Of a DNA stretch of 64,000 nucleotides, positions 29,766 to 64,000 are shown piece after piece. Every line of letters starts with the position of its first letter. Positions within the stretch are counted from its first letter, which is position 1. The position numbers and the translations under genes are program-made. Under the pieces are notes generated by a model. That model saw only the letters and a program-made list of their open reading frames with translations. It ran no database searches and had not been told where the DNA came from. The stretch is from Psammoneis japonica (Eukaryota), in NCBI GenBank assembly GCA_008632985.1, contig QPGO01000056.1, positions 276,406-340,405 of the forward strand. The letters are read 5' to 3'.

Positions 29766-30052
29766 GTGGTCAATGCTCCCCGCGGGCTGGCTTGCAATGT
29801 TGAAAAACCAATCGATTTGCAGACTTTCACACAGATGCTTTTAAAGGCAGAGGACAGACCTTTTTTTTTTGCTGCCATGCCGCTGGCGACTGGCGTCGCT
29901 TTGCTCGCACGACTTTTTGCAGTGATCTGATTCTAGAGACAGGCAATCAGCAGGGATGGGAGGACTTTGCTGGCGCAGTTGGTCCCTTTCCATTCCCAAG
30001 CTGGAACGGCATGGCCAGAGGGAGGGAGAGGTGGGAGTGCTTTTAGACTGTC

Positions 30053-30498
30053 TGCAACACACAGCTGCTGACAAGAGCCAATGTGTCACGGCGACGTGTT
30101 GCAGCCTTTAAATGTCTCAAGGGCGTGACAAAAACAACCTTTTGTCTGCATGCACACTGCACTGTGAATTCACAGCGGAGTGGTTCATCGCAACCATTGG
30201 GCAGGAGGCCAGGGGTTCGAAACCCTGAGCAGGAGTTGTCTGCAGCAACGTTGATCACTGTTGAACGCGTAAAACTCTGTGCAGTTCTGTGTGTTCCTTC
30301 GCACGTACCCACACTGTTCCGCCAAAACCGTGCAGTGTCAGTGCACGTTAGTAAAGAGCCGTGTGGACGCGTGACACATGGGGAGGAGTGCAACACACAG
30401 CTGCCAACAAGAGCCAATGTGTCACGGCGATGTGTTGCAGCCTTCAAATGTCACAAAGGGCGTGACAAAAACAACCTTTTGTCTGCATGCATGCTGCA
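30053..30498 (+). mobile_element. TRIM (miniature LTR element) nested in Ngaro copy 2
   Basis: TG...CA direct repeats at 30053-30161 and 30389-30498; PPT ggggaggag abutting the 3' LTR; 4-bp TSD tgtc/cgtc; absent at the equivalent site of copy 1 (~2440). Confidence 0.88.
30170..30240 (+). promoter_or_regulatory. tRNA-like internal Pol III promoter (A and B boxes)
   Basis: cAGCGGAGTGG (A box if the original was TAGCGGAGTGG) and cagggGTTCGAAAccctg T-arm hairpin/B box. Confidence 0.6.
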
Positions 30499-30898
30499 CG
30501 TCTGTTCGGCTTGCTGCTGAAGCTCTTTGGAAGAATGGGCAACAGCAGCTTGCTTCCAGATGCCAACCCAGATGTGTTCAATGGAGGTGGAGCGGGGGGT
30601 GACTTCCCGGTGCGTCATCAATGGGTGATGAGGTCATCTCCCCTTGTCGGTCTTTGTGAGGCCAGCGACTGGCGTCGCTTTGCTCGCGCGACTTCTTGCG
30701 GTGATCTGATTCTAGAGACAGGTGATTGGCAGGGATGGGAGGACTTTGCTGGCGCAGTTGGTCCCTTTCCATTCCCAAGCTGGAGCGGCATGGCCGCTCC
30801 GGCGCTGCCCACGTACACTGGTGTGGGCAGTGGCGGTGCAATTGGGTGGGTGGGTGGGTGGGCCCGGCTGGAAGGCTGAGGCGCGGCCTGTGATGGAA

Positions 30899-32053
30899 TC
30901 ACGGGTCGGCGGGGGCAAGGGGCACGTCGGCATTGAGGTGCAGGACAAATTGGCCGCCAGCCAACATGCGGGTTGCGAAATTGTGCATGACGGGTTCTGC
31001 TTGCAAGTGGAGGTGACGGAGCATCTCGTCGGAGTGCCATCGGCCTGAGAGGCGGATCACGTCGGTGTCAACATGGGCACATGGGAGGGCCATGGCACCA
31101 GCCGTGTGCAAACAGCGAGCGGAGACATCGGCGGGTGTGAAACCCAGCGCAGTGGGGCCGATTGCCAGAATTGCGGCACGTGGGATGCTGGCAATGCCGG
31201 CGGGAGAGACACGGCACCAGGTGTTGTCATGCAAGTGCACACCAAGGGGCATGTCTGGTGTGGTGCCAAAGGTGCGGAGATGTTTCACTCGACGGACAAG
31301 GGCGCGTGTCGGACAGAGGTCAGGGTGTCCGGATGGGCCAAGGCCCATGACTTTGCCGCGCATGCCATTGTTCTGTGTGGCAAAAGTGAGCGTGCCAAAG
31401 GTGGCAGTGTCGAGGTGTTCATCGGTGCAGGTGAACAAATCGAGGCAAGTGCCTCCAGCGGAGAGGCGAACATCTCCCAACCGAAAAGGAGTGGTGTCGG
31501 AAGGCGCTGCGGTGTGTTCGCCTGGCCGCAGGAGGAAGAAAAAGGCCAAAGCAGTCATGTCTGCGATGGCTTGGGTGCCCGGATGATTTGTCAGGGAGGC
31601 AGCATGGGCAATCCACAAGAGAACAGCGACGGGGACCAGTTTGACCCGGTCTGGGGGAGGATCCTCTTTCTTGTAGAAACGGATTTGGCAGCTGATGCGG
31701 AAATCCATGTTGCCTTGGAGTGTGTGCCGCGGGTCCGGGGACCCCATTGCAGCGAATGTTTGGCCAATCGACCGCAGGGCACCCTCAGTGGTGCGTGCGC
31801 GGACGGGATTGCCACGTGGGGCGATGGCGCCTGTGCGGAATCGGTGCATGAAAACTTGGAAAAAGATGACTGGGTCGTCGACATCTTGCAAGAGAGGGTC
31901 GAGGGCCAAGTCGTTACAAAAACTTCGCCAGAGGTCCCAGTGGGCATTGCTGGAGCTGGCGGAAGAAGCAGCAACGCCGTGGGCAACGGCGTGTTGCACA
32001 GCGCCGAGATCACATGGGAGCGCAGCGCGGGTGGCGGGGTCCAAAGGCACCAA
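30899..32053 (-). pseudogene. Tyrosine recombinase of Ngaro copy 2 (open frame, catalytic Tyr>His)
   Basis: LLRPGEHT and GRWHSDEMLRHLH, versus MLRYLH in copy 1. Confidence 0.88.
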
Positions 32054-33620
32054 GAGGGAGTCTGTGGATGATGAGTGTTAAAATGGTGCAAGAAGGCACA
32101 GTTGGACAAATGTTGCAAGCGAGAGGCGTCATCCGCAGCAGTGTTCAACGGTCCCGGCAAACAATCGTGGAGTGACAGGCAGCGGTGGAAACGTTGGTGG
32201 TGACCTTGGCATCAGAGGAGGGGTGCTGCGACCTTTGCAGCAGTGGTGGAGCCCTTGCGTTGACGAAAGAGAGTGCCGGTGTTGTCTGTGCGGTTGAGCA
32301 CTGTGCACTCTCGAACGTTGAAACAGTCCGCCGCGGCACAGGATTGCATGGTGCCACCGACCAACTCCAAGTCGGTGTTGGCAATGGGGCTGCGGGGATT
32401 CTCAAAGGTGGACAGTCGGTCAATGACTGCCCAGGGAAATTCATGTGCCAGACAACAGGTCCGGCATTGTGTTGTGGTCTCCGGCGGTGCGCAGTGGAGC
32501 AACGCAGCATGGTGCTGCGTGCGACCGCTGACGGCGCAGGGAGAAGGACCCCCCTGCACCATGACTGGCTGCATCATGGCAGCCTGCAACAGCAGGCAAC
32601 AGGGGGACAAGTTCTTGGACACGGGTGGGGCGGAGGTCGAGCCCGCGGCATGACAACCGAAAATCATCCAAGATGTCGTGAAAGTTGCGGGCAAGACGAA
32701 CTCGCCCATCTGGCCCAGTGTGGAGCAAGGCTTCCTGGAGTTCGGAGAACAGATTGCGAGACCCGGGAATGCCGGGCGTGAGGGATCGCAGTTCGCCAAG
32801 AAGCTTGCGCAGGTCGGCAAGCGCTGCCCGCTTGCAATGGCGGGGAAACTCTTCGCACAGCATGGTGTGGAGGCGCTCGCGGCGTCGTGGCGCAAGGCAG
32901 ATGGTCATGGACAAAGTGTCAATGATCCACCCTGGGACCTCCTTCTGCGTTGACCAAGTGGCGTCGCCTTTGCGGAGCTTTTTGACTGAGATTGGCTCCT
33001 CGCAACTGGGGTGGTCTTGGTCATCAATGGCGTGCATGATCGTGCGATGCACACTGCACAGCGATTGTTTGGAGCCTTGGGCGGCGCCGATAAAGTCATC
33101 AACATGGATGTCAACATGTTGGAGGCGCTGCCGGCGGTGGTGCGCGAGGTGTGGATCCGGCGTGTCTGGCACTGGGACAGCGACAGACGGACTCACGTCA
33201 GCAGTGACAGCGCGGTGCTTTGGTGGACGGCCATCAAGGTGAGGTTCGAGTGGGTGGTGCGGTGCCCGATGGTTGCGCACGAGCTGGCGATTGGCAATGT
33301 CGGTGACCGTCTTGGTTGCCGCACTAAATGCCGGTGGTGAGTTGGACCATCCCATGGGCAGCCGAGTGGGTGTGGCTGCTGGGGGAGGTTCTCCCGGAAG
33401 GCGGGGAAAAACCACACCTGGTGTGGGTGCTTGCTCTGGTGCCAGCTGCATGCAGTGGAAGCCATCAGCCAGGTCAATCTTCATGAGACAGACGCGGCCT
33501 TTGTTTGGGTTGGTGAGGAGAATGCGCCGAAGGGTGCGGTCCAATGTGCACCCGAACTGCATGGATTCCATCGGCATGTTTGGCTGTGTGGAAGGGTCAA
33601 CACCGCACTGTTTGTTGCAG
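31950..33620 (-). pseudogene. RT / RNase H of Ngaro copy 2
   Basis: MESMQFG, KIDLADGFH, RLPMGWSNSPPAF, HVDIHVDDFIG (YxDD mutated to HVDD), HDAASHGAGG. Confidence 0.9.
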
Positions 33621-35570
33621 ACGATGGAATTGTTGCCTGGCGCATTTACACGGCTTGGTCCAGGCGGTGACTGCACAGAGGTCTGCGAACGTGGCATCGT
33701 GGGCGGTTGAAGGACAGACGTTGGCAGGTCGAGACGCCAATGGCAGGCGCCTTGTGTGGCCTCAGCCACCACTGGGAGCGGTTGGAATGGGACAGGGTTT
33801 TGTGAGTGCATCTGCGCTTGAAACCAATGGCACATCTTCACCTGCGCGTGATGTTGCAGGTCCGCTGGTGACGTCGGGTGCGACACCACTTGCGCCGCCA
33901 AATCGTTGGCGCAGACATCCATGGACTGGCGCACGTGAGTCAACCACTGCACCAGTGGATGTGCTGCGCCAAAGGCTGCAGAGAGGACGATGCGCAACCT
34001 GTCGAAAGACTGTTGAACCACCTGGATCGCAGTGGCCACCATGGCATTGTCGGGGGCTTCCAACACTTGCGTGTCCGCCAGCGAAGGTGTGCCATTGCCT
34101 CCATGAATCTGTTGATGCACAGAGTTGCGACAGGCGGTCTGCTCGGCTTGTTCCGGTGCAGTGATGCGAACAAAAAAGGGGTGATTCCCTGGGTTAACTC
34201 GTCCTTGTTGTGCCGGCGAAGTCGACTTGGGTGAGTTTTGTGATCAGATTTGTGGTCACCGGCACATTGAAGTGCACGTGGTGTGCTTGCCATTGCTCAT
34301 TGATTGCATTCTGGATGGTGGCGATTCGACCGGTCTTGGGAGAGGCTGCCAGTTGCGCCCAGAGTGGTGGCAAGTTGGCTTCATGATGCACCTGGCACAA
34401 ACGCATGAGTTTGGCTGTGCCAAACTCCCCGCAGAACTCCGTCGGTGTTTTGCCGCGCGATGCCGCCTGTTGGCACGCTTCCGCATCTAAACGTTGTTGG
34501 CACTGCTCTGCTGTCAAGCTCTCAATGGCCGTGACCACTGGTTCAAACTGGCGCGGTTGTGGCAGTTGGCCCACGCGGTTCGGAAGATCACGCTGCACCA
34601 TCGCGTCGAAGAAACGATTTGGCGCTTCGTTGGGTGGTTGCGCCATCATTGGCCATGCTTGCGCTGCTTCAGATGTGTGTTGGTCCCACACTGTCGTGCA
34701 GCACGCCACTTTCAAAAAATCCAGAAGTGGCCTGCATTCGTTGACCGCATTGGCAGCTGTGACAGCTCCCAGCACCTGGGCAAATGCTTGCTTCGGCATC
34801 AATGGCGTTGAAAGCAAGAGATTAACACACGCGAATGGCACCATCATGGTGTTCCGCGTCCTGACCTCAACAGCGTCTGGGTCGTTTGGCGCACTTGTGG
34901 ATGCAATCCTTCCGGGGTTGCAACAATGTGGGCTTGCAGCGCAGCGTCAGTCGGCACCCATGTGCCGTGTTGGGCCAACTGGAATGCATCATTAGCGACG
35001 GGTGCAAGTTGGTGTTGTCCCATCGTCAGGTCGCCCATGAGCACAAAAAATTGTCCGTCCCACGGTTGTGCTGGTCCTGCTGCCGTGATCGGGCACTGGG
35101 TTGCGTGATGGAGCACCTGCATGACTCCAATGTCGTTGCCTCCTGGCACCCAGCAGTGCTGCACAAGAGCCATGGGCAAATTGTGCAAAGAAGCTGCCCC
35201 AACTTGGGTCCTCAGCACGTTGGGGTCACAGCGTGACTGTCCTTGTAGTGGGACCATGAAGTCCTGCATGATTTCCACACAGTTGCCGGCGCATGGATCC
35301 TTGATGGCATGCGAGCAGCAATCCCAACAAGTGTGGATTGCTGCTGGTGGCGCTGGAACGCCCTGCCCCGCGGGACCTGCTGGCGGTGCGGGTGGCACTT
35401 GGGGTGGCGGCTGTTGTGGTGGCGCTCCAGGGGCTTGTCCCACCTGCACTGCGGCTGGTTGTGCCGCTGCTCCTGGCACTGCCGGCACCACTGAATGCAC
35501 CGGTGCTGGGGCACGTTCTGGGCATTGTTGGCCGCCGGAATCGGTTGTTGATTTTGTCTGCCCCCAGGTT
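33620..35570 (-). pseudogene. gag-like ORF1 of Ngaro copy 2, frameshifted
   Basis: Lies upstream of RT; Pro/Ala/Gln-rich N-terminus; AKLMRLCQVHHEANLPPLWAQLA. Confidence 0.6.
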
Positions 35571-36707
35571 GTTGTGCCGCTGCAGCGGCGTCCGGCAGCA
35601 GATTGTTTCCGATGTTTCCGTCTTGATTCATGACGTGTGACGATCCTGCAAGCTTTGTGGATGCAGCGGCGGATGGCATCCTCTGCCAAACACAGCGGCA
35701 CTTCCAGACCATCCACTTGGCTTGCTGCTGAAGCTCTTCGGAAGAATGAGCAACAGCAGCTTGCTTCCAGATGCCAACTTAGATGCGTTCAATGGAGGCA
35801 GAGCGGGGGGTGACTTCCCGGTGCATCATCAACGGGTGATGAGGTCATCTCCCCTTGTCGGTCTTTGCCGGTGTGAGGCCAGCAGCCAAGGGGGCGGGCG
35901 GGCGTGTGTGGTCACTGTAAATGCGCAGAAAATAAATGCGCAGAGAATCGCTGCTGCGGCACTGTGCCACTCTCTCCACCAGAGCAGAGAGCAGGGCTGC
36001 CGCACCGTCACACCCAAAATTCTACCCAAGCAGCATTATTCTACTGGAAAGTGGAATTCTCGTATGTAAAAATGTCAATACGGTGTTGGTATTTTCTAAA
36101 AAGATCTACCGTACATCCACTGTTTATTCCACTCAGGTAGAAGGCACAGTAGAATTTTCGGAGCCAAAAATTCTACCCTGCGCGCCCCTTTCGCGCGATC
36201 TAAACAGTCTGTCCTTGGTGCGTGATGTCGAATGCGACGGGAGGAACAAAAAAAATACTCGAAAGTTCTACTCGTCTCAATGCGGCATCTCAACCATGAG
36301 CGTTGCCGTATGCAACCCCGGCAACTGCACCAATGCCAACTGCATCTATGGTGGCATGGCAAGCAGCACTCACAGGCGTCCTGAGTGCATTAGAAACCTT
36401 CACACTCCCTGTGGGAAAGCAGACGAACGACTTGCACTACTTTCAACTTTGACAAGCTCTAAAGCACCTATTTGAGATTACTGTTGTGAATTTTATATTT
36501 AAATATTACTAAACAATTGCATTAGCCTAAGGAACAATTAGCACCTCATTGCACTTCCACCAGCTTGAGAAGAAAACAAGCTGCTCCCTAGCGCGGAAGG
36601 CACGACCAAGGGTTGCTGCCGTTGATCTTTAAATAGATTGTTCCGCATCCTTGGCTTGAGATACATTTTTTTATAACTATTTGGTCCGTATTCACCTTGG
36701 CACCTAT

Positions 36708-47313: not shown

Positions 47314-47895
47314 GGGAGACACTCTTTCTTGCGGAACGAAGACTTTTCTGCTTTCTAGGTTTGCCGTTCAACGACCAAATGCAGGCTACTTTTATCACAA
47401 AACGGCGACTTTCTCTTACAGCAGCTATGGGCCCTCTGGATGCGTGGACTAGACTATGAATGCACTTTATGATCGAACTCTCCCAAAGTAATGAGAGGGA
47501 GAGCCTCGTCATACTACAGTACATGTAGGCACAAGCGTGGTACGTCATTCATCGACAATCTTAAATCGACGCCGCAGCGCAGCTGGTGAGTGTCAAGAAG
47601 TGATGCTCAATGCGGGTTCGCATTTTTTGGACACCACAATCGTTAAGTTTGGGCGCCAGAACCCCGGGCTGAATCATGGTCTTTTTTAAATAAGGAAATT
47701 GTGCATTCGACCTAGAAATTGCTTTTTCACACGGAACACATGGCCGTTGACAGATGACACAAACGTCCGTTGAATCCACAATCATGTCAACAGAATTGAT
47801 TGCACTCATTTCCGTCCTCACAGGAGCTTTTCCTTTGATGACAGAAGATCAAAATCTCTTGACATGTGAAAAAATGAAAAACCCAGGACTCAACC

Positions 47896-48106
47896 CGGAT
47901 GTCGAGAATCGCAAATGCGATCGCACGATGATGTTGACATCTTGTGTGTCAACATCAATCGCATCCGGACAATCTGTTGTCACGATCATATTCTCCGAAA
48001 GGCCTTTTGTCTGTGGGAGCAGTGCAAAAGGTTCAGGCCATTGAGAACCCGTTCGGAGAAACCCAAAATGATTGCGCAGAAATGGTTCTCACAATTTTCA
48101 CTTTTT
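47896..48106 (-). repeat. Inverted, diverged ~210-bp homologue of the Gypsy LTR core
   Basis: Reverse complement aligns to ~58037-58246 (shared RSxDDVDILxVNxNRIRTICCH translation in the ORF track). Confidence 0.85.
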
Positions 48107-48749
48107 GAACTTCGTTCCCCCCTGCGCTTGTGTGGCAGCAGCTTCTCTTGCAGACCAGACCCTTTGCCTTGCTGCTGCAATGCAGGCGACAAGGTCTCTG
48201 TTTTGCAGTGGCAGAGCAAAGGAAAACACACAAGTGTCGCAGCTGCAAGGCAGGTCCACAAAGTCTCTTGACATCACATTGTTCACAAAGTCCCAGCTCA
48301 GGTCACTCTGGAAGATCTCACGCATGTTTGAAAACTTGTTTTGTGGCACTCGAGAAGCGAAGCAAGCCTGTGTTTGTTTCACAGCTCCTTCAGGCAAACA
48401 TGGATCAAAGTTTGCCAAAAAGTGGTCACCTCCCAAAAATGGGATCTTCCTGTGTTGTCCTTGCTCTTGTTGTTTGGCCCCCCTCTTTCCAGTTCACTCA
48501 CAGCTTCTTGCGCACTGCCCAGAACCTCTCCTGGTGTCAGGGTCATGCCCAGTGCAATTCTTTCCTTGTGCAGAGCTTCTCCATGCTCTGAACACAGGCC
48601 ATCCATTCATGTCCTTTCCAATTTTTCCATTCCAGTTGTCAGCAGTGCCAGTCGCTTCTTCGTCGCCCCCAGTGAAGTCACCTTGAAGCACGCTTCGGTG
48701 TGCCAAGATGCCTCGGCAGCTGGTTTGCCCTCAAATGCACAGAAAAGAA

Positions 48750-50560
48750 GAGATGGTCATTGTCCAACCAGCACAATTCATCTCCAACAAAAAGCTGTTG
48801 TGCGAAGCTCAGGCCAAAAACCAGTGCTGCTGCACAAATTTGCCCTCAAATTTCTGCTGATCAACTCTGTCTCCTGCCTGCCCTGCTGTGGGCACTGCCA
48901 ACCCATGTGGTGATCTCATGCTTTCTGCTGCTGCAGTGCCTTGGGACACAAGACCACCCCATCCAGCATCAGCAGCTTGCAACACTCCAGACAATTGGCC
49001 CTCTCTCTGGCCTCTGCGCTGACCCCCACTCTGTGGCACACCACAAACTTGCAAACCTCATGCTGCAACAACTGCACAAGCACCCTGCTGATGTCAGCAT
49101 CAAACTCACCCCTGCTTCTTCCACCACTTCCCTCCAGGACATGGCTGCAAAACCCCTTCACTGAGAAACACCATGCATCAATTTGACGCAAGCTCTCATT
49201 GTCCTCCCATCTTTAAGTCCATCTCACCCTTCACCATCTTGTCACTTGGATTGTCAACTCTTCCAAGCCTCTTCAAGATGACGTGGCCTCCCCCATTGGC
49301 AAACCTCCTCTGCCCCTTTTTGGGAGCTTTGGCTTCTTTTTGAATCTCACATCATTTGTCCTGTGCCCAAGACTCAAGACCACCCCACCCCTCTTGCCCT
49401 CTGCAATCATTGCTTGACACCTGTTTCTTCTCTGCCAAGGGTCCACCCACTCCTTTCGTGACCACTCTCACTCCACTCCTCCTCCCACTCCCTCTCATGA
49501 TCCTTCCAACTTTGATGCTTCTGCCTTTGCCCCCACTCCACCCAACTCACTGCCAACAAAATCAATTTTGGTGCCACCTGTGCCCAAGTTGCCTCATCCC
49601 TCCCTGTTGCCTCCCTCATGTCTGAGCACATGGAACAAGTCCAAAAGCTCTGCCCTCCATGCAAGCGTCCCCCTCTCTCCTCTCACCCATTGTGCTTGCC
49701 ACCCTCCACCTCCACCAGCCCTGACATGGTGCTCCCTCTCCAACCTGGAAAAAGCTCCACTGCAAACCTGGTGCTGCCTCCAGCCCTTTTGTGGATTCTG
49801 CTGATCCACTTGAACCTTTGCCCTCTGCCATCACTCCGCCCCTGTGGCTGCATCTGTGCCTTCAAGCATCTCTCAGACTTCGTCTTCTCCACCAGCCTTT
49901 GTGCCTCCATTCAACCTTGCTTTGCCAGCACCAGCTGTTTTCTCACTCTTCATGAGGACCAAGCCAGCCAGCCCAAGCTGCACCCCACAGGAGTTGGTGC
50001 TGCCCTCCATCACATCGCTGGCACCCTTGTCGCCCACTTGTTCGCCACCACCTTTGCAGCTGACCTTCTTTCCTCCAGCCAGTTTGGTGCAGGAGTTCAT
50101 GGCAGCATGGACTTCCTCATCCATTCAGTCCATGCCAACACTGAATGACAACGTTCTCTCAATGCTGCGCCTTCCCATGCCGCGGTCATCATCCTTGACC
50201 TCACCAACTTTTTCAACAAATCATCTCGAGATGCTTGCTGTCACTCCCTTGCCTCCTCCTCCTCTCAAAAGTGCTGCCCCCTTCTCCCCCACTTCGACCT
50301 CATTTGTCAACAGCCCAACAAATGCTGGTGCCATGACCACCACCTGCAGCGGTCATCCTTCCACCAAGACGAGGCTTTGGTCCAAGGATGCCCCCTTGGC
50401 CCCGCCTCTCAAGCCTTGTCCCACCAGCCCGCACATTTTCTTGATGACACACATGCCTTCCTTCCACACTCCTGCATCTCTTGGTTCCCAGACCGCCTCT
50501 CCTCTCTTGGCCCACCCTTCGGCATGCATCCTCCTCCTCACATCATCTTGAATCTGTCAA
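48750..50560 (+). mobile_element. Degenerate CRE-like non-LTR retrotransposon, RT region
   Basis: LRPCGC, SQFGAGVHGSMDFLIH, ILDLTNFFNKSSR and LVQGCPLGP motifs; pyrimidine-rich sense strand. Confidence 0.72.
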
Positions 50561-54474: not shown

Positions 54475-54649
54475 CGTTGTAAGTCGACCGCCGACGGAAT
54501 GCAAAAAAAGCAAAAACACATCATAATAACGGGCGTGAAAAGAAACGAGAAACCAAAACGAGCGAGAAAGGTTTGGACGTGCGTGAATGAAATGCTGAGT
54601 CACGTCACATCCTGCCATCCGGGCGGGGGCAAGACGAAAAAAAGCGAGC

Positions 54650-57600
54650 ATGCATTTTGCCCTGCAGAACCATGATGTGTTGAAGAGTTTTTTCTGGCTC
54701 AAAACAACAACACGCTCAAATTGGTGCAGCCAATTGTGGCACCTTGCTGACTTAGAAAAATGTGGCATCTCTGAGGTGCTTTGTTGTGAATTCTCAAAGG
54801 AGTGCCGTGCGCCCCAGCATGTGTTGGAATTTCGCAGCTTGCTGGCCAGTGTGCGTTGGTCTCACCCACCCCAAACTCACCACCAGCATCCACCATGTGG
54901 CTTGCAAACACGTTGTTCTCCCCACAATGATGTCAACCACTGTTGCTGTGCCAGCCATGTGCAGAAGCCCAAAAGTGAGATCACAAGACCCCCCCACAAC
55001 TCACCCGAGTTGTGAGCGCGGGGGGTCAACACGTTGCCCATGATCATCAGCGCATCTTGCACAGCCACATTGTCTGTCTCTCCTGCATGAGCCACTTCTT
55101 ATCCCAGTGCTCCAACAGCAGAGGTGCATGACAAGCTTGAGAATGTGCAGCTTTGTGTGGGTGGCCGACGGGAAAAACTCTCATTGAGAGTTTGCGCTGG
55201 CTGACAACGTCAATTCTGTCACATCAAAATGGACCCCATGCATTGCCACTCATGCTGTGTGCTTGTTCATTGTGACTTTGTGCCTTGTCATGCTTTGCTG
55301 TTGCATGTGTGCCATCTTTCCACTCTGCTCTTTTGTTCTGTGGGGTCTCCATCATTGTGAGCCATGCCGGAGACAGATTTTTCCCAGACAAGAGTTGTCA
55401 TCTCTGCTGCATGGTGTCCACAGCAATCCAACAATGAGGCCAAGTCACAGACACAGCATCAGGAAGAGCTCATGACAAATGCATTAACTTGGAGCTGCAA
55501 GGTTTCAAAAGCTGGGCAAGCTCTCAAGAGCTCCAGTCGTCTGTCATCGCACACTTTTGACCAGAGAGTTTGCTCTGATTCTGTCTGTTGACATGTGGAA
55601 TTTTGCTCGGCAGACAAATGCATCATGGCAACTCTGTGAAGTTGTGGACTGTTTCTTTTGGCTGCTCACAAGCTGGAAATCTGCAACCTTTTTTGCATCA
55701 TTTGTCAGCTGGTGCCACAATGTCAGTGAAACAAACTGACAGCTGAGTTGTGTGCAGCACCTGCCTTGACAATCCACTGCACTGTCAGCTTTTGCTTGGA
55801 ACACAAAAAATCAGCCACACTTGCCTTGTTCTGTCACAAAGGAAACTGTTGAGCTGTTCTTGGCTTGTTTGTGTTGTTCAGCCCCAATCAAATGACCTGT
55901 TGGACACAGTCCCATGAGCAAGTCACACATTTCCTGATTTGGCAGATCTCATTCTTTCACTGAATGCCAGCCAGATTGATGTGCTTCTCTTGTGCAGCAG
56001 AAACCAGACCATCTGGCACACCTTTTGCACAGAACCACTGCCATGCTCCAAATGGGGCCAATTTGACTTGGCTTGCACTTGGGTGACTGCAAGCAGTCCA
56101 AGTCAGGCACACCCACAAGGTTTGTGATTTTTGTCAACAACTTGATGGGACACAGGATGCGCACCACAGCATTCATCTTTGCACCATGTGTTGGTGAGTG
56201 GCTGACACAAGCCAGATTTTCAGGATCACAATCTTCAGCATTTTCAGCTTTTTCTCATCTCCAGCAACATGGGTTGCTTGCACCCCATTTGATGCCCCGC
56301 CTCAACCAACTGACTCCACTCTTTGTCAACAAGAAAACTGTGAAGCAAGGCTTGCAACCCAAGGCCTGCCAACAATGATGCCCTTGCCATCCAAAAAATG
56401 TGGGCCACCAGGCCATGAATGAGCTGTTGCCTTGCAGCTGTTGTTCCTGTCCAGTGGTCTTTTGGCGCATGTTCAAGGTTTTCTCAGGCATTGCGCGTGT
56501 TTGATGTGGAGATCCTGCATTTCAAATGCTTGGCTGGCTGCTGGCCTGCACACACATCAATGTGCCAAGCTCATCAATGTTGTTGCTTGCATCACATTTT
56601 TAAGTGGGAGGGCCCTGTGTCACCTGGTGGGAGCAAAAGGCTCACCCTGATTCCCACAAGCTTTGTGCAAAATAGAGCACATTTTTGTCCACCATGACTT
56701 CCTCTGCCCTGTGAGTTGTGAGTCAGTGATTGTTGCTCCATTGCATTGCTGCAATGTCATCAACCATGGCTTCATCCTCTCCAAGTTCTTGTGGCCAGGC
56801 AATGTGAAGATTGGCTTGCTCAAAGTGCACAGGCACACACCACCACATGCAAGTTTTTGCACACACCATCATGACTCCAGGACCACATGTGCAAACAGCC
56901 ATTTTTCACTGCAGGCATCACAGTCAAATGTGCCATTGCACTCTGTCAACAGTGTGCATTTGTTTTACTCTCTTTTTGTGCTTTTTAATTGTTGCTGATT
57001 TGTTTGCAGTGTTCCCACACATGTGCCAGCAGAAGGCTCTGCAGCATTGGCGTGCAATGTCAAAATGACAATTGACCAGTGTTGCACCCTGGTTGTGCTC
57101 TTCTCAGGCAATCAATGTTGTTGGTTTTCATGGTCATCATCTCACAACAATTTCTCAAAAACAGTGTCTGTCACTTCTTGTGGAGGCTCATCTTGGTCAG
57201 CTGCCCTGCACTTGGCGGCACCACTGCTGTGTGTTGTTGTGGTGCACTTGTCAAGTGTGCAAGACTTGCCACATCATTCTTTCCTTTAGGAAAACATCAG
57301 AAGTTACAGCCATGCACCAGCACATCAACAGGAGCTGAAAGAAGAGTGCTGCAGCAACAAGGCAATTTGCTGCAAAAGAGCAAGCAAGATGCCAACAGCC
57401 CAAATGGACAATTTCCAAATTTTGGGGTCACTCAATTCGCTGTTTTTGTGCATGTCAGAGGGGCTCCACAAGCCCGCACCATGCAATGCTGCTGGCCACA
57501 GTGCATTGTGCACAGCTTGCACCCTGAAGATGTTGGCGGCATTTGCCTTGCTCTCCTGCCACAACAACAACATCCCCTGCATCTCCTCGCACATCATGCA

Positions 57601-57985
57601 TCTGGTGATTGATGCATGTTACAGTCCCCAGCCCTCCTCCTCTTCCAGCTCCTGGCTTGCCTGCCCCAGCCCAAAACCCTTTTGCCTTGACCAATGGTCC
57701 TGGTGCTCATCTGAGCTGCATGCCCAGCTCTCTTCCGCCTCCTTCTTGCGCTGAACTTGCAACTTTGTTCTTGCCCCGGGCAAATGTTCTTTGTTCCAAG
57801 CAGTGCTCGGGGCTTTGAGGTTTGAGTCGGCGCCAAAATCTCTCCCCTGTTTTTGCGAGGCACGGCCGTCACTGCCATGTGATGCATGGTTTGGTCCATG
57901 TGGTGTTGGCCTCACGTCTTCATTTTGCCAACGACAACATGTCCACATTTTTTGTCCATTTGTCCAAATCCAAAAAAGGAACGTC
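54650..57985. repeat. Unclassified, heavily TpA/CpG-depleted TE relic
   Basis: Abrupt loss of TpA relative to the adjacent gene; no confidently recognised domain. Confidence 0.5.
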
Positions 57986-57989
57986 CACT

Positions 57990-58356
57990 TGCACTATGCT
58001 CGAAGAACGAGTGTAAACGAAAGTAGAATAGTGTACGAAAAGTGGAAATTATGAGATTAAATTTTGCTCTGTGATTTTTGGTTTCTCCGAACGAGTTCTC
58101 AATGGCCTAAAGCTTCTGCACTGCTTCTACAGACAAAAGGCCTTTCGGAGAATATATTCGTGACAACAGATTGTCCGGATACGATTGCTATTGACACGTA
58201 AGATGTCAACATCGTCAATCGATCGTATTTGCAATTCTCGACATCCGATCAACTCTGTGTGATCGTTCTGTCCTTTGTACGCATCCACGACTGTGGTACG
58301 ATTGACATATAAATAATATATAATCATAAATATGTATATAACAGTCGCATACTGCA
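57990..58356 (-). repeat. 3' LTR (367 bp, mostly TpA-intact)
   Basis: Direct repeat of 62348-62715. Confidence 0.95.
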
Positions 58357-61300
58357 TTCGCCTCCCTAATTGCACATTAGAGTCATTTGTAAGTGGATTA
58401 TTCGACGGACATCGACAGTGTCAATAATGTCTCCACTTTCACTGTATTGTGCCATTAGCAATGACTGTTGTTGTTTTGTATAGGCAATATAGGGCCGTTC
58501 CAATTTCCGAATGTCTTTTGAGAGTGACATTGTTTGTTTCTCACTTAATATGTATATATAGTATTACGTCGAGTATTCTCATTGACGTTCTTGTTGATAT
58601 GAACACAAGGACTAATTGTCCTGGAGTAAGTGTTTTTCCTGATATCGATTGTACATAGCATCGTGCCCAGTACTTAATGTACGCTCTTAATTATGGCGTT
58701 CACTTACTTACTTGTGGATTTCATGTAGTTTGGCGGGCTTACTTTATATGCCATATTGCTCTGCTGCACTACCACGTTTCATAAGTAATAATAAACGATG
58801 GTCAAAGATATTATGACCATTTCGTCTTGATAATCAATCCTGTGATGGTTATGAATTCCATTATGGATTTTTTTTTTGTACTTCAACCATCTATCAGTTG
58901 GATTTTAATCGTTATTTGGACGTTTCTTTCTGACATACCGGTGTTATTTTGTCATTCCGAAGGCAGTGGTTTCGTGCACTAAGTGGATAAATGTCCATTT
59001 TTCTTTTCTTTTTCTAGATCTTTGGCACATCTCGTGTGTCGACATGATGTATATTTTAATGTCTTGCCTCGTACATTGTACAATACAACCGTACGGGTGT
59101 TGTGAGATTGTCTTTTGCCAGTGTGAAGTGGATACGTATAATGTATACCAATCTGTCACTGTTTTTTCCTAAATCGTCCTTTAAAAAGGCGATTTTATCC
59201 TTGTGACATGAGCATTTTTCGATCTCGCTCGCCTCCACGAAAAGTGTTCGTATGATATGTCGCGTCCGACAATTTGGAGGGAATGTCTTTATCCCGTTTT
59301 AACGGTAGGACATTGTCGTAGGATTCAATTTTCTATAGTAAGTCGGCTGATCGCGTCTATCGCGACGATGTTCGCCTTGCCCTCGTTGTATTCTAATTCG
59401 GGACTGAAGTTGTCAACGTATGACTTTGTCCGTTGTGTCTTATGATCCGTATATGTATAAATCTGTTGGCCAAACAGTATATTTCGGAATTTTATAAGTG
59501 TTTTCACTATGGACAGAAGTTCTTTTTTCCGTTGTAACGTATAATATTGAAATGCGTGTATGATAACAATATAGTTTTTGATTTGATACGCTCCATATTT
59601 TCGGAGACTTTTCGTTCCGTACTTGTACTTTTGCCGTTTGACCTTTATTGAGGTGAATTTGGCTAGTATTGTACAGGAGATCATTGAGACTACATGTCTC
59701 GATAATAGTAACGTATGACAACGAGATGTCGTAGTGTTCTTTACGTTTTTCTCGTGTTGCGATTGCTTGAATCGCCTCCATTTTCTTTGCAATCGATTGC
59801 ATGTCGTTACGCATGGAAGTCTTGATAGTTTATTTCAAGTTAAATAGTGAAGGACTTTTGTTGTTAACCTTCTAAGCGACTGTTCTAGTCGTTTGAATGC
59901 CGTATTAAGCTGTTGCTTGTACAGGTGATATTTTGAAGTTACTTTTGTCAGGCACAAACGATCACATATAGTCGTTCTGACAACTTCAAACCTGTTATGA
60001 GTTCACTCAAGTGTTGTATAAAAATATCTGGGGCTCTATAGATTCTCATTGGAAGTCCATAGTACTCATTTTCTCCCCACGGCATGATTTTCGTGTGAGC
60101 ACGACGTGTGCTTTTTTTTATTTGACATGGTGGCATTCCATGTTTGAATCAAATAGATTACATATATGAAACGTTCTTGCTTCAATAGCATTTCCTGAAC
60201 ATTGGGTAAAGGGTGCACCACCTGTATGAACCTCACACTAAGCTTCTGAGTGTCGGATGCGGTCGAACTCGACCTGTTTTCTTTAGACAATGAGTCTCAG
60301 AGCGACTTGTTCAGAGTGATTTCATTCTTGAGACTTCAATCTTTCATAATAGGTCAAACTCCTTTTGATTGGACGCCTCCAAAGACTATGACAGGAGAAG
60401 GTTCTCTCGCGTCGTGGAATCGCGTCAGATTTTCCACGATGAGATCCACTGATGCTTCCCGTGCATTCGTCTGAGGAACTTTTCAAAACGATTTCAACCT
60501 CTTGAGAAGAAGATTGAGTTGGTTGTGTTCATTTGGGTTAGATGCATCGCCGCAGTTGTCACTTGATTAAGATCGATGGCGTGACAATGTGAGTCGAGGA
60601 CCATTGGTTCCGTCATCAACTCCATTCACGGCGTCACATTTTTCAATGTGATCGGTTTTCAGCTTGAAAACATCGGCATCGAAGAGTGTGTGAACATTCT
60701 TCATAAGGCAATTGCTTCTTCCCATTAGATTTCTGCATTTGCGCAGTCCAACATGACTTGCAGGACTGGACATTAAGTCGCGTCCCATGATCATGTCATT
60801 TGAACCTGAAGAAAATTTGGTGTTTTCAACACACACTGTTTGAATGTCAGCATGCCTTAAATTTCGCACAGTGAGAACTGAATTCGGTGTTTGCCATCAG
60901 TCGTAAAGAGCTCACCCTTGGTTTCCCAAGTTTTTGGTGGCGGATTCTTGTGTTCTCAACTTTCGCACGAATTTGCGCAAAATTGTGGTTGACGATGTTC
61001 CGTCATCGATGGGAACACGTAGATGCTTTTTTTTTTCTCCTTTCCCAAGGAAGCATTCATGTAAATGATGACTCCTGGACCAGTGTGAATTATTTCTGCC
61101 TTTTTTCTAGGCTTCCCAATGTCCAGTGAAGCACACAATTCGTGAATGGACCAAAATCATTCTTCGGATTCAGTCTGGATCATCCGATCAAATTGGTGTT
61201 TTTCATCACTGAGGGTGTCAGAATCTGATTCTTTGCCCTTGTGCTCTTTTTCTTTGTTCAAGGAACTCGCTTTGAGCATTTTTTGAACCGCCCAATCAAT

Positions 61301-62347
61301 CATGATGTTCATCTCTTTTTTTGCGAGCGGCATTTTCGTTGTCGCAACGCGACCGCGTGCGATTGCCATTTGAACGGCGCATTTTTGGGTCTCTTTCAGA
61401 GTCACCCTTGCACTCTTTTGCTAGTTCATTTTTAGAACAGCTTCAATCCGTGATGTGGGTGTTCTTTTTTCAAAGATGAGACCTTGCATTCACTTTGGAT
61501 TGTTCTGGCACCATGTGGGAGACCATTTTTGGAACCAAATTTGGAACCTTTTTTTATTTTGGAACCAACTGCGCTGTCAGAGCCTGAGTTGACATGTTTT
61601 TTCATCACGGACGTCATGAACGACCTTTAGATGACTCAAAACTTAATCAGCTCATCAAGGATGAGTTGCAACAGTTGATTGTTTTGGACAGTAGACTGAT
61701 GCTGCCATCCTTGCGGTGCGAGTGATGGCTGACAAATCAGCGCTCGGTTTCCCGCTAGATTCGACTTAGAATCCATCTGAGGGTCGCGTGGACTCTCATC
61801 GTTGACCTCTTGGGTCCAACAGAGGCTTTCTCGCTGTCAAGCAGCTCTGGTTTCTTCAGGTCGTCTCGAAAATAATTTGCCTGATTCTGAAGTGCATTTC
61901 CTCGGAGGACATGAGTTGTGAGATGCTTGAGGCACTTTCCAACGATTCCCTCTTGCTCCTTGGACTCGAGGATCATCGATTCGGTCTCAAAAAACTCTCC
62001 AACAGTCTCTCCTTGCATGGCAGACGCATTTCTCGGATCTGATCGACTCGGAACTTGCATTCTCTGCAACCATGACTTGGTGTAGATTTTTTGATGATGC
62101 AGTGTGCTTGAGAGCCCTTGATCCTTGGGTGCTTGGAACAGACCGTGTTGGAGCGAATCCTCTTGTCTGGCAGACGAAAAACAGCGTTCCATCTTGAGGC
62201 ACTGCTCGGCTTGAGCTTCTTCCGCTCGGAAATCGATTCCAGCAGAACTGGTGCGATTCATTCCTGTTTGTAGAAGAATTTGCAAAGGCACATCAGTTAA
62301 AATTTTCATTTTCCGTGCTTTTTACCTTCTGTGGTGTGCACACACAA

Positions 62348-62715
62348 TGCACTGTGCTCGAAGAACGAGTGTGGGACGAAAGTAGAACAGTGTGCGAAAA
62401 GTGGAAATTATGAGATTAAATTTTGCTCTGTGATTTTTGGTTTCTCCGAACGAGTTCTCAATGGCCTAAAGCTTCTGCACTGCTTCTACAGACAAAAGGC
62501 CTTTCGGAGAATGTGTTCGTGACAACAGATTGTCCGGATGCGATTGCTGTTGACACGTAAGATGTCAACATCGTCAATCGATCGTATTTGCAATTCTCGA
62601 CATCCGATCAACTCTGTGTGATCGTTCTGTCCTTTGTACGCATCCACGACTGTGGTGCGATTGACACACAAATAACATGCAATCATAAATGTGCACACAA
62701 CAGTCGCACACTGCA
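62348..62715 (-). repeat. 5' LTR (368 bp, TpA-mutated)
   Basis: Direct repeat of 57990-58356. Confidence 0.95.
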
Positions 62716-63539
62716 CACTTTTTCGACATCCGGGTCTTTTTTTGGGTGCTGAAACTTACGTTCAAAGCTGCACGCGCACTTGTGGTACAAGAGTTACGTA
62801 CGTGCTGTCCATGCATTGGTTTTTCCACGGCGCTTTTTCCATGCGGCACATGGCATGGGGGATTCCCATCTGTGAAGTGATAATTTGGTGTGAAGTGATC
62901 ACGCAGAATTGCACGTGTTTTTTCTAGTGCTGAAATTCTGATCAGAACGCCACCAACTTGTGTTGTGATTCATCAATGGATGCAATCATTTGCACACAAA
63001 TCGCCACAGTAAAGTTTGCCGTCGAGTTCCAGATGAGAGAAAAATCTTTCCCTCCATCTCATCTCTCATCTCTCCTCCACTCAACTTCTCGCCGAGAAAA
63101 AAAAAAACGCAAAAACCGTCATCCCGACTCGTCGACCATGGCGCTCTAGTTCCGAGCCTGTCGTCCATGCTGTTGAGCTGTTGACACACCATTCGATTCG
63201 CAAGAGTCGACACAACAAGAGACTGTGCGCAGCATGTGCGCAATGCATTGTCGCACTGTTTTTTTCTGTCATTGTCGACGTACATCCCAGCAGTGATTTT
63301 GCATGAGGTTTGAATTTTACAATGATCCGTGTGCAACAATCAGCTCGACATAAATTTCAAAAACACCCACAACATAAAGCAGACTTGTCTTACAACAGCA
63401 ATCTGTGTTTGCCACCATGTGCATTCATCCTCAGTGTGTTGACACTGTCACTGCTCCTTCACCGGCGGATGCATTCAAACCTTTGGAAAAAGCCAAGGCG
63501 AAAGGTAGAGCAAAGGGAACGAAATGCCCACGTGTGGAG

Positions 63540-64000
63540 AAGTCTTTGAAGTTTCACATTCTTGTGGACTTCTGTGCAAACGGCAATGGAGTTTCTTCAA
63601 GCCATTGCTGCAAGAATGTCCACCCCGAGCACAGCACCCGTTGCAACACCCTGAATCGGGCATGGGGACAAAGTGGACTTCGTCGTCTTCATCAAGAAAG
63701 TGCTTCAGTGGAGAAAGCACAAGAAGCCATTTGCAACTGTTTTGGAGCGAAAGACAAGAAGGCAAAGGAGGCAATCACTGCCTTGCACAAGGGGAATGGA
63801 ATTCTCACTGACGACGAAGAGCAGCATGTTGTTGAAGTTTGCTGCTGGTTGGGTCAGATGGGATGCGGAGTGTCAAAGGACACCATTCTTGATGTTGTGA
63901 ATGACTTGGCCAATGAGTGCATTGATGAGCGTGAAAAACCATCTGTGTCTGATTGTTTTGTGTGCTCCATGCTCCAACGCCATCCAAAGCTGGCAAAACT
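63540..64000 (+). mobile_element. pogo/Fot1-like transposase N-terminus (CENP-B-type HTH), degenerate, runs off the window
   Basis: LTDDEEQHVVEVCCWLGQMGCGVSKDTILDVVNDL...SMLQRHPKL. Confidence 0.6.

What the first reader, a model, noticed from the sequence alone, without database searches (positions are those of the whole stretch)
62348..62715. The mutator has a 5'-TAY-3' preference, which narrows the candidate enzyme
Seen: every A>G in the LTR pair is in TAT or TAC, and every T>C is in ATA or GTA (TAY on the other strand). In heavily mutated repeats, surviving TpAs appear enriched in YTAR (tttaag 547, gttaaa 803, attagc 1255, tctaga 2229 and 2557), which is TAY on neither strand. The rule is not absolute: the YR Tyr>His change is in a TTA context. 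Established: TadA deaminates A in U-A-C-G of tRNA-Arg, and polymerase eta favours A>G at WA motifs. Inference: candidates are a DNA-acting TadA/ADAT-like deaminase, deamination of a modified adenine, or error-prone synthesis in heterochromatin. No such enzyme is encoded in this window.
Basis: partly seen in the sequence, partly recalled or inferred. Interest (0 to 1): 0.85.

Follow-up and report, generated by a model that had tools for sequence, protein, structure and literature searches.

The report
TpA-erasing mutator prefers TAT/TAC
In this alga's genome, repeats and mobile elements are being rewritten by a process that turns TA steps into TG or CA, hitting TA followed by T or C about three times more readily than other TA steps; the same kind of mutator was first reported in 2026 in an unrelated alga and its enzyme is still unknown.

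Summary
The two LTRs of one retrotransposon (57990-58356 and 62348-62715, 4-bp target duplication CACT) differ at 20 of 367 aligned bases. All 20 are transitions, all with A/T on the left and G/C on the right. 18 of 20 are TpA versus TpG/CpA, and all 18 sit at a TAY half-site (TAT 14/27, TAC 4/13, TAG 0/6, TAA 0/10).

About 30 kb of the window has almost no TpA (O/E 0.00-0.09) and roughly doubled CpA+TpG. The few surviving TpAs are enriched in YTAR (49% against 20% in normal sequence).

The direction is loss of TpA. A reverse-transcriptase ORF has 0 Tyr in 600 residues and reads HVDD where its relatives have an invariant Tyr (the YxDD-box position, name recalled). An invariant recombinase Tyr is TAC in one copy and CAC in the other. 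Where this copy differs from nearly all other copies in the sequencing run, it has TG/CA and they have TA.

The preference is modest, about 2-4 fold, with 3' T > C >= G > A. It is not absolute, and no +2 G effect (TadA-like UACG) is seen.

A 2026 preprint shows de novo TpA-only A:T>G:C hypermutation in Bigelowiella natans. This is therefore a new member of a known kind, in an ochrophyte alga (probably a diatom). The enzyme is not identified; adenine deamination is the best guess.

The parts
57990..58356 (-). Left LTR of the retrotransposon (the element's 3' LTR, as its only recognisable coding remnant is on the minus strand). It keeps the TpA state at all 18 TpA-type differences.
62348..62715 (-). 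Right LTR (the flagged interval). It carries TG or CA at 18 places where the left LTR has TA, all at TAY half-sites.
57986..57989 (.). Target-site duplication CACT, left copy.
   Evidence: sequence read directly
62716..62719 (.). Target-site duplication CACT, right copy. It shows that the two LTRs belong to one insertion.
58357..60250 (-). Internal part of the element with normal TpA density (16-26 per 250 bp) and CpG O/E 1.2-1.5. It holds an RT_RNaseH remnant at 59328-59834(-).
60251..62347 (-). Internal part of the same element with TpA down to 1-8 per 250 bp. The drop begins at about 60240-60290.
   Evidence: direction
62720..64000 (.). Right flank, itself a repeat (summed contig depth 440-1250 against about 60 for unique DNA). 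It is partly TpA-depleted and contiguous with the mutated half of the element.
54501..57985 (.). Old tract left of the insertion: TpA O/E 0.03-0.07, CpG O/E 0.09-0.29, CpA+TpG O/E about 1.9-2.0.
2501..13000 (.). TpA- and CpG-depleted tract (TpA O/E 0.00-0.09, rising to 0.23 in the 2001-3000 bin at its left edge). No Pfam domain is left in its ORFs.
17251..20000 (.). TpA-depleted tract over a tandemly repeated Cys-rich ORF.
25751..36000 (.). TpA-depleted tract. It includes a DIRS-like element at about 30500-36000 with a reverse-transcriptase ORF at 32444-34243(-) and a tyrosine-recombinase ORF at 30902-32077(-).
1..2444 (+). Second, inverted partial copy of the DIRS-like element (90% identical to 30500-32949). 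It keeps TAC at the invariant recombinase Tyr.
47751..50500 (.). TpA-depleted tract. It begins with a diverged fragment of the same LTR family (47896-48105, inverted).

Best explanation
The window comes from an ochrophyte alga, most likely a diatom. Its repeats and mobile elements are subject to a DNA-level, region-wise hypermutation that converts TpA into TpG or CpA (A:T>G:C transitions) on both strands.

The flagged LTR is the hit copy of a true LTR pair. After the element inserted, a mutated domain reached from the right flank about 2.4 kb into it and changed 18 of 28 scorable TpA in the right LTR. The left LTR and the left 2.2 kb stayed untouched.

Each TpA offers two half-sites, one per strand. 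The chance of a hit depends on the base 3' of the A: T > C >= G > A, with pyrimidine about 2-4 times purine. RTAY therefore disappears first and YTAR (TTAA above all) last. With time every TpA goes. The same tracts often also lose CpG by ordinary C>T decay, so both processes pile up CpA/TpG.

Shown here: the signature, its direction, its regional nature and the context bias.

Inferred: the chemistry. The most likely one is deamination of adenine to hypoxanthine in DNA by a deaminase recruited to silenced or repeated chromatin, read as G at the next replication. This was proposed for the identical signature seen arising de novo in Bigelowiella natans.
For: Signature:
- The LTR pair has 20 of 20 one-directional transitions, 18 at TpA. 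The TSD CACT shows one insertion.
- TpA O/E is 0.00-0.09 across 1-kb bins in the interior of the five tracts (about 30 kb in all). CpA+TpG O/E there is 1.5-2.0, and the edges are sharp.

Direction:
- The RT ORF 32444-34243(-) has 0 Tyr in 600 aa, Cys 3.0% and His 5.5%. Medians over 120 homologues are Tyr 2.0, Cys 0.8, His 3.7.
- At 9 Tyr-rich columns it reads H3, C2, Q, R, P, N, while homologues keep Tyr 56% of the time. The column that is Tyr in 40 of 40 relatives (98% of 60 homologues) reads His in the string IHVDDF.
- The invariant recombinase Tyr is TAC in one copy and CAC in the other.
- Outgroup-polarised differences between the two DIRS copies give TpA>CpA 3 and no genuine gain of TpA.
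- 79 environmental relatives have TpA O/E 0.37-0.84, median 0.62, and 37 TpA per kb, against 4 per kb here.
- Contigs of the likely source sample, 40 of 254 variant rows shown: at 17 places in 60.3-63.8 kb the window has TG/CA where 41-100% of other copies by depth (15 of 17 at 84% or more) have TA. 7 of these are at 100%. No shown row has the window alone with TA.

Context:
- Half-site hits are TAT 14/27, TAC 4/13, TAG 0/6, TAA 0/10; Fisher p=5e-4.
- Survivor classes against normal sequence give p=7e-10. Against the pristine half of the same element, p=1.4e-5. Against the 79 relatives, p=4e-5.
- Survival in old tracts is RTAY 1.4%, mixed 4.7%, YTAR 14%. An additive half-site model predicts 4.5% for the mixed class.
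- The fitted kY/kR ratio is 2.2-3.8. This matches 9 of 12 rule-following outcomes in asymmetric contexts: LTR pair 6/6, third LTR fragment 3/4, Tyr codons 0/2.

Precedent: in mutation-accumulation lines of B. natans, 230 of 231 hypermutations were A>G/T>C and all fell on TpA (10.64898/2026.01.13.699255, section 4 read).
Against: - The pristine half of the element is itself unusual: GC 0.38, TpA O/E 0.88, 41% RTAY. At 6 shown places about 80% of other copies carry TG/CA where the window has TA. I read these as subfamily differences, but they would also fit C>T on this copy.
- Of the 17 shown window-derived changes only 8 are at TAY half-sites (my reading of the contexts). The shown rows favour places where the other copies are unanimous, which biases them towards slow contexts. 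I could not see the other 214 rows.
- All 3 outgroup-polarised single TpA losses in the old DIRS copies are at non-TAY half-sites.
- The survivor analysis depends on assumed starting compositions.
- The LTR sample is small.
- No enzyme, no whole genome, and no direct evidence for inosine.
Confidence: 0.78

Rival explanations
1. The mirror reading. The left LTR and left half of the element were hit by a RIP-like C>T process at CpA/TpG (RCA>RTA), and the right LTR is the unchanged copy.
For: - The LTR pair alone cannot give direction.
- The left half is AT-rich with TpA O/E 0.88 and an excess of RTAY.
- At 6 shown places about 80% of other copies have TG/CA where the window has TA.
- Diatoms carry RID-related DNMT4 genes of unknown function (PMC9998398, passages read).
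Against: - It cannot make tracts with TpA O/E near 0.
- It would need a razor-sharp stop exactly at the insertion boundary 57990, although the CpA-rich left flank has only 3 TpA in 990 bp.
- Places where this copy stands alone or nearly alone against the other copies are all losses of TpA or of CpG, and all lie in the right half.
- The Tyr-codon and outgroup tests give loss, not gain.
Confidence: 0.05
2. Same mutational outcome, but the lesion is on thymine in 5'-R-T-A-3'. Examples would be an oxidised, glycosylated or alkylated thymine that pairs with G, or is 'repaired' to C. Adenine would not be the target.
For: - TpA is palindromic, so every count here fits RTA on T as well as TAY on A.
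- From memory, not checked here: hydroxymethyluracil in dinoflagellate DNA is said to favour TpA and TpC.
Against: - From general knowledge: 5hmU pairs with A and is not known to give clean T>C transitions.
- Adenine deamination gives exactly this spectrum.
- No evidence of thymine modification in this lineage was seen in any call.
Confidence: 0.1
3. Error-prone DNA synthesis during repair of silenced chromatin makes the A:T>G:C changes. This would be a Y-family polymerase of pol eta (WA motif) or pol iota (G opposite T) type.
For: - From memory: pol eta's hottest motif is TA and A>G is its commonest change; pol iota misinserts G opposite T.
- Both strands are hit (9 A>G and 9 T>C among the 18 TpA changes).
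Against: - There are 0 transversions in 20 LTR differences.
- AA is hit 2/62 against TA 18/58.
- B. natans shows 230 of 231 transitions, all at TpA.
- No Y-family polymerase domain is in the window.
Confidence: 0.05
4. The mutator is specific for TpA only. The apparent 3'-pyrimidine preference is an artefact of small numbers and of the assumed starting tetranucleotide composition.
For: - Only 18 events in the LTR pair.
- 3 of 12 outcomes in asymmetric contexts break the rule.
- 9 of the 17 shown window-derived changes break it.
- All contexts are more than 85% lost in old tracts.
Against: - Three different baselines give the same shift.
- RTAY and YTAR are expected to be equal under independence, yet stand at 5 against 39 in old tracts.
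- The LTR test needs no baseline (p=5e-4).
- The additive model predicts the mixed class.
Confidence: 0.07
5. A-to-I editing of element RNA (ADAR-like), copied into DNA by reverse transcription.
For: From memory: the A>G spectrum and a 5' U preference resemble ADAR.
Against: - The two LTRs of one insertion are copied from one template, yet differ at 20 sites.
- The boundary lies inside the element and the mutated domain continues into the flank.
- TAG is hit 0/6, whereas ADAR favours 3' G (from memory).
- In B. natans the changes arise in resident DNA.
Confidence: 0.02

Closest known systems
TpA hypermutation of integrated viral DNA in Bigelowiella natans (Mettrop et al., bioRxiv 10.64898/2026.01.13.699255, April 2026; abstract and sections 4 and 12 read)
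   Same: - Almost only A>G and T>C, confined to TpA, giving TpG/CpA.
- It acts on whole regions of selfish or foreign DNA.
- It leaves TpA-depleted, CpA+TpG-enriched clusters.
- The enzyme is unknown; an ADAT2-like deaminase is proposed.
   Different: - There it is shown de novo in culture, in single-copy giant-virus and virophage inserts of a rhizarian, with only partial depletion (Rho TpA 0.45).
- Here it is inferred from footprints in a stramenopile, on LTR and DIRS-like retroelements and tandem repeats, driven to near zero TpA.
- That text reports no 3' context: a search of it for 'context', 'trinucleotide' and 'diatom' gave 0 hits. Its supplementary mutation table could not be opened.
Repeat-induced point mutation (RIP) of fungi
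   Same: A transition-only, dinucleotide-specific, region-wise mutational inactivation of repeats with sharp borders.
   Different: - The direction is opposite: RIP makes TpA from CpA, lowers GC and creates stop codons.
- This process destroys TpA, raises GC and removes TAA/TAG stops and Tyr codons.
- A trigger by duplication is not shown here.
TadA / ADAT2-ADAT3 tRNA adenosine deaminases and their DNA-acting forms
   Same: - A>I chemistry would give the spectrum.
- The edited A34 always follows U33; TadA's natural site is U-A-C-G (from memory).
   Different: - Here 3' T is better than 3' C, and +2 G gives no advantage.
- The only eukaryotic ADAT2 tested on DNA that I read about prefers GAA and TCG, mostly in hairpin loops (PMC10354150, passages read).
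- No such gene could be looked for, as no genome is held.
Pol eta WA-motif mutagenesis (phase 2 of antibody hypermutation)
   Same: A:T-pair mutations with TA as the hot dinucleotide (from memory).
   Different: No transversions in the 20 LTR-pair differences, and AA is almost untouched.

Membership tests
TpA>TpG/CpA hypermutation of selfish DNA (B. natans type) | Spectrum almost exclusively A>G and T>C | tested here: met
   20 of 20 differences in the LTR pair.
TpA>TpG/CpA hypermutation of selfish DNA (B. natans type) | Changes confined to TpA | tested here: met
   18 of 20; the other 2 are beside an indel. TA 18/58 against AA 2/62, CA 0/50, GA 0/55.
TpA>TpG/CpA hypermutation of selfish DNA (B. 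natans type) | [quoted passage not shown] | tested here: met
   1-kb bins with TpA O/E 0.00-0.09 and CpA+TpG 1.5-2.0 across the interior of five tracts. This is far beyond that paper's cut-offs of 0.43 and 1.52.
TpA>TpG/CpA hypermutation of selfish DNA (B. natans type) | Targets foreign or selfish DNA and spares ordinary genes | tested here: met
   - The tracts hold LTR and DIRS-like elements.
- Gene regions (mitochondrial carrier, STAND NTPase) have TpA O/E 0.4-0.8.
- One tract covers a tandem-repeat ORF of unknown status.
TpA>TpG/CpA hypermutation of selfish DNA (B. natans type) | Arises de novo in resident DNA at a rate far above background | not testable with these tools
   Only indirect evidence: the LTRs are identical at every base outside the 20 transitions and the 1-bp indel.
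Fungal RIP | C:G>T:A transitions that create TpA | tested here: not met
   The direction is loss of TpA.
TadA-like recognition (U-A-C-G) | 5' T, 3' C and +2 G preferred | tested here: inconclusive
   5' T: yes. 3' C is hit 4/13, less than 3' T at 14/27. TACG 3/6 against TACH 1/7, p=0.27.
ADAR-type editing | Acts on RNA; 3' G favoured | tested here: not met
   The LTR differences arose after insertion (TSD). TAG is hit 0/6.
Pol eta WA signature | AA as well as TA hit; many transversions | tested here: not met
   AA 2/62; 0 transversions of 20.

The most novel reading that the evidence does not exclude
Stramenopiles and rhizarians share an old genome defence that mirrors fungal RIP. A chromatin-guided DNA adenine deaminase, in effect a natural adenine base editor, reads 5'-TA-3' with a 3' T/C bias and silences mobile elements for good. 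It would do so by erasing Tyr codons (including the catalytic Tyr of reverse transcriptase and of the recombinase), TAA/TAG stops and, by inference, TATA-type promoter and AATAAA-type signals. It never makes a stop codon. The context rule found here would then be the fingerprint by which the enzyme can be picked out biochemically.
Probability: 0.4. Interest if true: 0.9.

Novelty: new member of a known kind. Interest (0 to 1): 0.72.

Why it matters
The only report of a TpA-specific A:T>G:C mutator is one 2026 preprint on a chlorarachniophyte, and its enzyme is unknown.

- **Wider reach.** Finding the same signature at saturation on retrotransposons of a probable diatom would extend it across a second major algal lineage, and from viral inserts to ordinary mobile elements.
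- **A testable fingerprint.** The trinucleotide order TAT > TAC >= TAG > TAA, about 3:1 for Y over R, is a quantitative fingerprint. It can be compared with the de novo mutations already published for B. natans and with the in-vitro preference of any candidate deaminase.
- **A practical warning.** TpA-free tracts have no TAA or TAG. They are therefore full of long false ORFs rich in Cys and His: all 171 stop-to-stop ORFs of 110 aa or more were scanned and most gave no Pfam match. Standard RIP indices read them the wrong way round.

Tried and rejected
- **Whole genome:** none is held. No genome-wide tetranucleotide count and no proteome search for deaminases or polymerases were possible.
- **My first context tally:** it lumped CA<->TG double differences into a 'CpA' class and suggested 83 TpA-type differences between the two DIRS copies. 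Searches showed only 13-14. Most differences there are CpG-type (76 singles and 34 doubles). The flanks of the doubles are not R..Y-enriched (4 of 25), so that pair says little about TAY.
- **Coding test on the LTR element:** the interior is degenerate, with only an RT_RNaseH remnant, so it gave no polarity.
- **Third LTR fragment as outgroup:** it is itself mutated, so it gives context data only.
- **Contigs over the two LTRs:** they sort themselves to the better-fitting LTR and so give no polarity there. Only 40 of 254 variant rows were shown.
- **Strand-coordinated runs in the LTR:** 8 runs against 10 expected (hand count), not significant.
- **+2 G preference:** not supported.
- **The 79 metagenome relatives:** none has a saturated tract; the lowest 1-kb TpA O/E is 0.23. 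One of the two search patterns needed a Tyr, which selects against mutated copies.
- **Six-frame regex hit:** one HxE...PCxxC hit lies in a junk ORF of a depleted tract and was dismissed.
- **Literature on diatoms:** searches for this signature found nothing. Searches of earlier scan notes found nothing relevant.
- **Other papers:** PMC9258296 and PMC5889660 were searched for passages and added nothing.

Full report
**What is at the coordinates.** The interval 62348-62715 is the right LTR of an LTR retrotransposon spanning 57990-62715.

- Its partner is 57990-58356.
- The element is flanked by a 4-bp target-site duplication, CACT, at 57986-57989 and 62716-62719. The two LTRs therefore belong to one insertion and were identical when it landed.
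- The interior is degenerate. The only domain found is an RT_RNaseH remnant on the minus strand at 59328-59834.
- Contigs of a public run that holds 68% of the sampled words, probably the source sample, give summed depths of about 8,000-13,000 over the interior and 33,000-38,000 over the LTRs. Unique flanking DNA gives about 60. The family therefore has hundreds of copies.

**The organism.** A mitochondrial-carrier ORF (51885-52769, minus) has its best named matches in diatoms at 55-57% identity. Its best unnamed match is at 68%. The reverse-transcriptase family in the window has a named relative in Chaetoceros. No whole genome is held. I treat the source as an ochrophyte alga, probably a diatom.

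**The observation.** The LTRs differ at 20 of 367 aligned bases plus one 1-bp indel.

- There are 11 A>G and 9 T>C reading left to right. There is no transversion and no difference in the other direction.
- Eighteen of the 20 are TpA on the left against TpG or CpA on the right.
- All 9 T>C are in ATA or GTA, and 9 of 11 A>G are in TAT or TAC. The two exceptions sit in an AAA run beside the indel.
- Of the 28 scorable TpA of the left LTR, the right LTR has changed RTAY 12/14, RTAR 4/8 (all by T>C), YTAY 2/4 (all by A>G) and YTAR 0/2.
- Counting each TpA as two half-sites, one per strand, the hits are TAT 14/27, TAC 4/13, TAG 0/6 and TAA 0/10.
- Tests: TAY against TAR, Fisher p=5e-4; the choice of strand in the six asymmetric sites is 6 of 6 as predicted, p=0.03; TA 18/58 against AA 2/62, p=4e-5.
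10 of the 18 TpA in 1-2600 are YTAR.

**The wider picture in the window.** Per-kb dinucleotide ratios show tracts at about 2.5-13 kb, 17.25-20 kb, 25.75-36 kb, 47.75-50.5 kb and 54.5-58 kb.

- In 1-kb bins inside these tracts TpA O/E is 0.00-0.09 and CpA+TpG O/E is 1.5-2.0. Many 250-bp bins have 0 TpA where 11-20 are expected.
- Gene-bearing parts have TpA O/E 0.4-0.8.
- The borders are sharp. One lies inside the LTR element at about 60240-60290. To its left there are 16-26 TpA per 250 bp. To its right there are 1-8, and this continues through the right LTR into the right flank.
- Some tracts have also lost CpG (O/E about 0.1); others keep it (0.8-0.98).
- ORFs from the tracts gave almost no Pfam matches.

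**Direction of change.** Five lines of evidence agree on loss of TpA.

- *Tyr content.* The reverse-transcriptase ORF at 32444-34243 (minus) has no Tyr in 600 residues. It has Cys 3.0% and His 5.5%, against homologue medians of Tyr 2.0, Cys 0.8 and His 3.7. At nine Tyr-rich alignment columns it reads H, H, H, C, C, Q, R, P, N, whereas homologues keep Tyr 56% of the time. The column where relatives have an invariant Tyr (the YxDD-box position, name recalled) reads His within HVDD.
- *The recombinase Tyr.* The neighbouring ORF 30902-32077 (minus) belongs to a family whose environmental members show a weak Phage_integrase match. At a column that is Tyr in 40 of 40 relatives, the copy at 1-2444 reads TAC and this copy reads CAC.
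- *Outgroup polarisation.* Using those relatives to polarise non-synonymous differences between the two DIRS-like copies gives CpG>TpG/CpA 12, TpA>CpA 3, three CA/TG double sites best explained by an ancestral TA hit on different strands, and no genuine gain of TpA.
- *Relatives' composition.* 79 related loci from metagenomes have TpA O/E 0.37-0.84, median 0.62, and 37 TpA per kb. The window's copies have 4 per kb.
- *Other copies of the LTR family.* In the shown variant rows of the laid contigs (40 of 254), 17 places between 60.3 and 63.8 kb have TG/CA in the window where 41-100% of the other copies by depth have TA (84% or more at 15 of the 17). Seven of these are at 100%. Five places have CA/TG in the window where the others have CpG.

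No shown row has the window alone with TA. In the left half, six rows show the window with TA where about 80% of copies have TG/CA. I read these as subfamily differences. This is the main point in favour of the mirror reading.

A C>T process would also have to stop exactly at the insertion boundary 57990. The CpA-rich left flank next to it has only 3 TpA in 990 bp.

**How strong is the TAY rule.** It is real but modest.

- Survivors in old tracts are RTAY 5, mixed 35, YTAR 39, against 310/652/240 in normal sequence (p=7e-10).
- The partly mutated 60251-64000 has 5/29/18, against 73/82/24 in the pristine half of the same element (p=1.4e-5).
- The two DIRS-like copies have 4/12/16, against 27.8/53.1/19.1% in the 79 relatives (p=4e-5).
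- Survival in old tracts is 1.4%, 4.7% and 14% for two, one and no TAY half-sites. An additive half-site model with kY about 2.1 and kR about 1.0 predicts 4.5% for the middle class.
- Fits with three baseline pairings give kY/kR of 2.2-3.8. A four-parameter model is significantly better, with 3' T highest, A lowest, and C and G between.
- In asymmetric contexts, where the rule predicts which strand is hit, 9 of 12 outcomes follow it: LTR pair 6/6, third LTR fragment 3/4 (read), Tyr codons preceded by a pyrimidine 0/2. This is what a 3:1 preference predicts.
- Against the rule, only 8 of the 17 shown window-derived changes are at TAY half-sites (my reading of the contexts). That list keeps the rows in which the other copies are unanimous, which favours slow contexts.
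- All three polarised single losses in the old DIRS copies are at non-TAY half-sites.
- +2 G is not favoured (TACG 3/6, TACH 1/7, p=0.27). TACG survives well in the partly mutated tract.

**Mechanism.** Four points are shown.

- The process acts on DNA after insertion.
- It acts on both strands (9 A>G and 9 T>C among the 18 TpA changes).
- It acts on domains whose edges need not coincide with element ends.
- It has TpA specificity and a 3' T/C bias.

The chemistry is inferred. Deamination of adenine to hypoxanthine fits the clean transition spectrum and the 5' T. It is the proposal made for B. natans.

Two cautions apply. First, TpA is palindromic, so A>G at TAY is the same event as T>C at RTA, and a thymine-directed lesion cannot be excluded from sequence. 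Second, the one eukaryotic ADAT2 tested on DNA that I could read about prefers GAA and TCG in hairpin loops (PMC10354150, passages). A housekeeping ADAT2/3 is therefore not an obvious fit.

A pol-eta-type process is disfavoured by the lack of transversions and of AA>AG. RNA editing before reverse transcription is excluded for the LTR pair.

No deaminase or Y-family polymerase domain is encoded in any of the 171 stop-to-stop ORFs of 110 aa or more. All were scanned, some in start-trimmed form.

**Comparison with what is known.** The closest match is a preprint of April 2026 on Bigelowiella natans (10.64898/2026.01.13.699255; abstract and sections 4 and 12 read).

- In its mutation-accumulation lines, two integrated viral regions mutated about 1000 times faster than the rest of the genome.
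- 230 of 231 changes were A>G or T>C, and all were on TpA.
- The authors found TpA-depleted, CpA+TpG-enriched clusters and named an ADAT2 homologue as a candidate.
- The text has no hit for 'context', 'trinucleotide' or 'diatom'.

My searches for the signature in diatoms found nothing. A paper on diatom DNA methyltransferases notes RID-related DNMT4 genes of unknown function but no such mutation pattern (PMC9998398, passages).

The present case is therefore a new member of a kind known from one preprint. It is new for the lineage, for the targets (LTR and DIRS-like retroelements, tandem repeats), for the degree (near-zero TpA over tens of kb) and for the context rule.

**Verdict.** The claim that the bias narrows the enzyme is only weakly justified.

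Noticed in passing
window 3000-9000, 48000-50000, 55000-58000 against 1-2000, 31000-35000: The TpA-free tracts come in two kinds. Some have also lost CpG (O/E about 0.1, GC about 0.5). Others keep it (O/E 0.8-0.98, GC 0.6). In the CpG-keeping DIRS pair, most differences between the copies are CpG>TpG/CpA in the ordinary direction (12 polarised cases).
   Followed up: partly
window 17930-19969 (+), tandem units at 18896-19958: A 680-aa stop-free frame made of about 339-bp tandem units with a regular Cys pattern lies in a TpA-depleted tract. It has no Pfam match. It may be a host gene with internal repeats caught by the mutator, or a false ORF whose Cys content comes partly from TAY>TGY.
   Followed up: no
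window 57990-62715: The LTR family is very abundant in the likely source run: summed contig depth is about 150 times unique depth for the interior and about 550 times for the LTRs. Several contigs show internal deletion variants, for example a join from 59682 to 60299.
   Followed up: partly
window 58189, 58445, 58771, 59145, 59588, 59809: Six places where the window's copy has TA and a steady 79-94% of other copies have TG or CA. This suggests a subfamily founded by a partly hypermutated master copy that went on transposing.
   Followed up: no
window 33455-33457 (codon 263 of ORF 32444-34243, minus) and RTc residue 479: One firm outgroup-polarised A>G at CpA (CAC>CGC, His in 93% of relatives). 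This hints that the mutator, or another process, occasionally acts outside TpA.
   Followed up: no
window 45340-47367 (-): An ORF with AAA_16/NACHT-type STAND NTPase matches lies in normal-composition DNA next to a depleted tract.
   Followed up: no
window 16331-16576 and 26456-26576: Perfect tandem duplications (123 bp x2 and 61 bp x2, 100% identical). The first is in normal DNA and the second inside a TpA-free tract.
   Followed up: no
L063 (metagenome locus, 3927 bases): Among the 79 environmental relatives this one has the lowest TpA O/E (0.37), with CpA+TpG 1.62 and CpG 0.49. It may be a partly hypermutated copy from another organism.
   Followed up: no
half-site counts over the depleted tracts: Surviving half-sites are richest in TAAA (40), TAGA (23), TAAC (19) and TACA (16). 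An A at +2 may add protection, or this may reflect composition.
   Followed up: no
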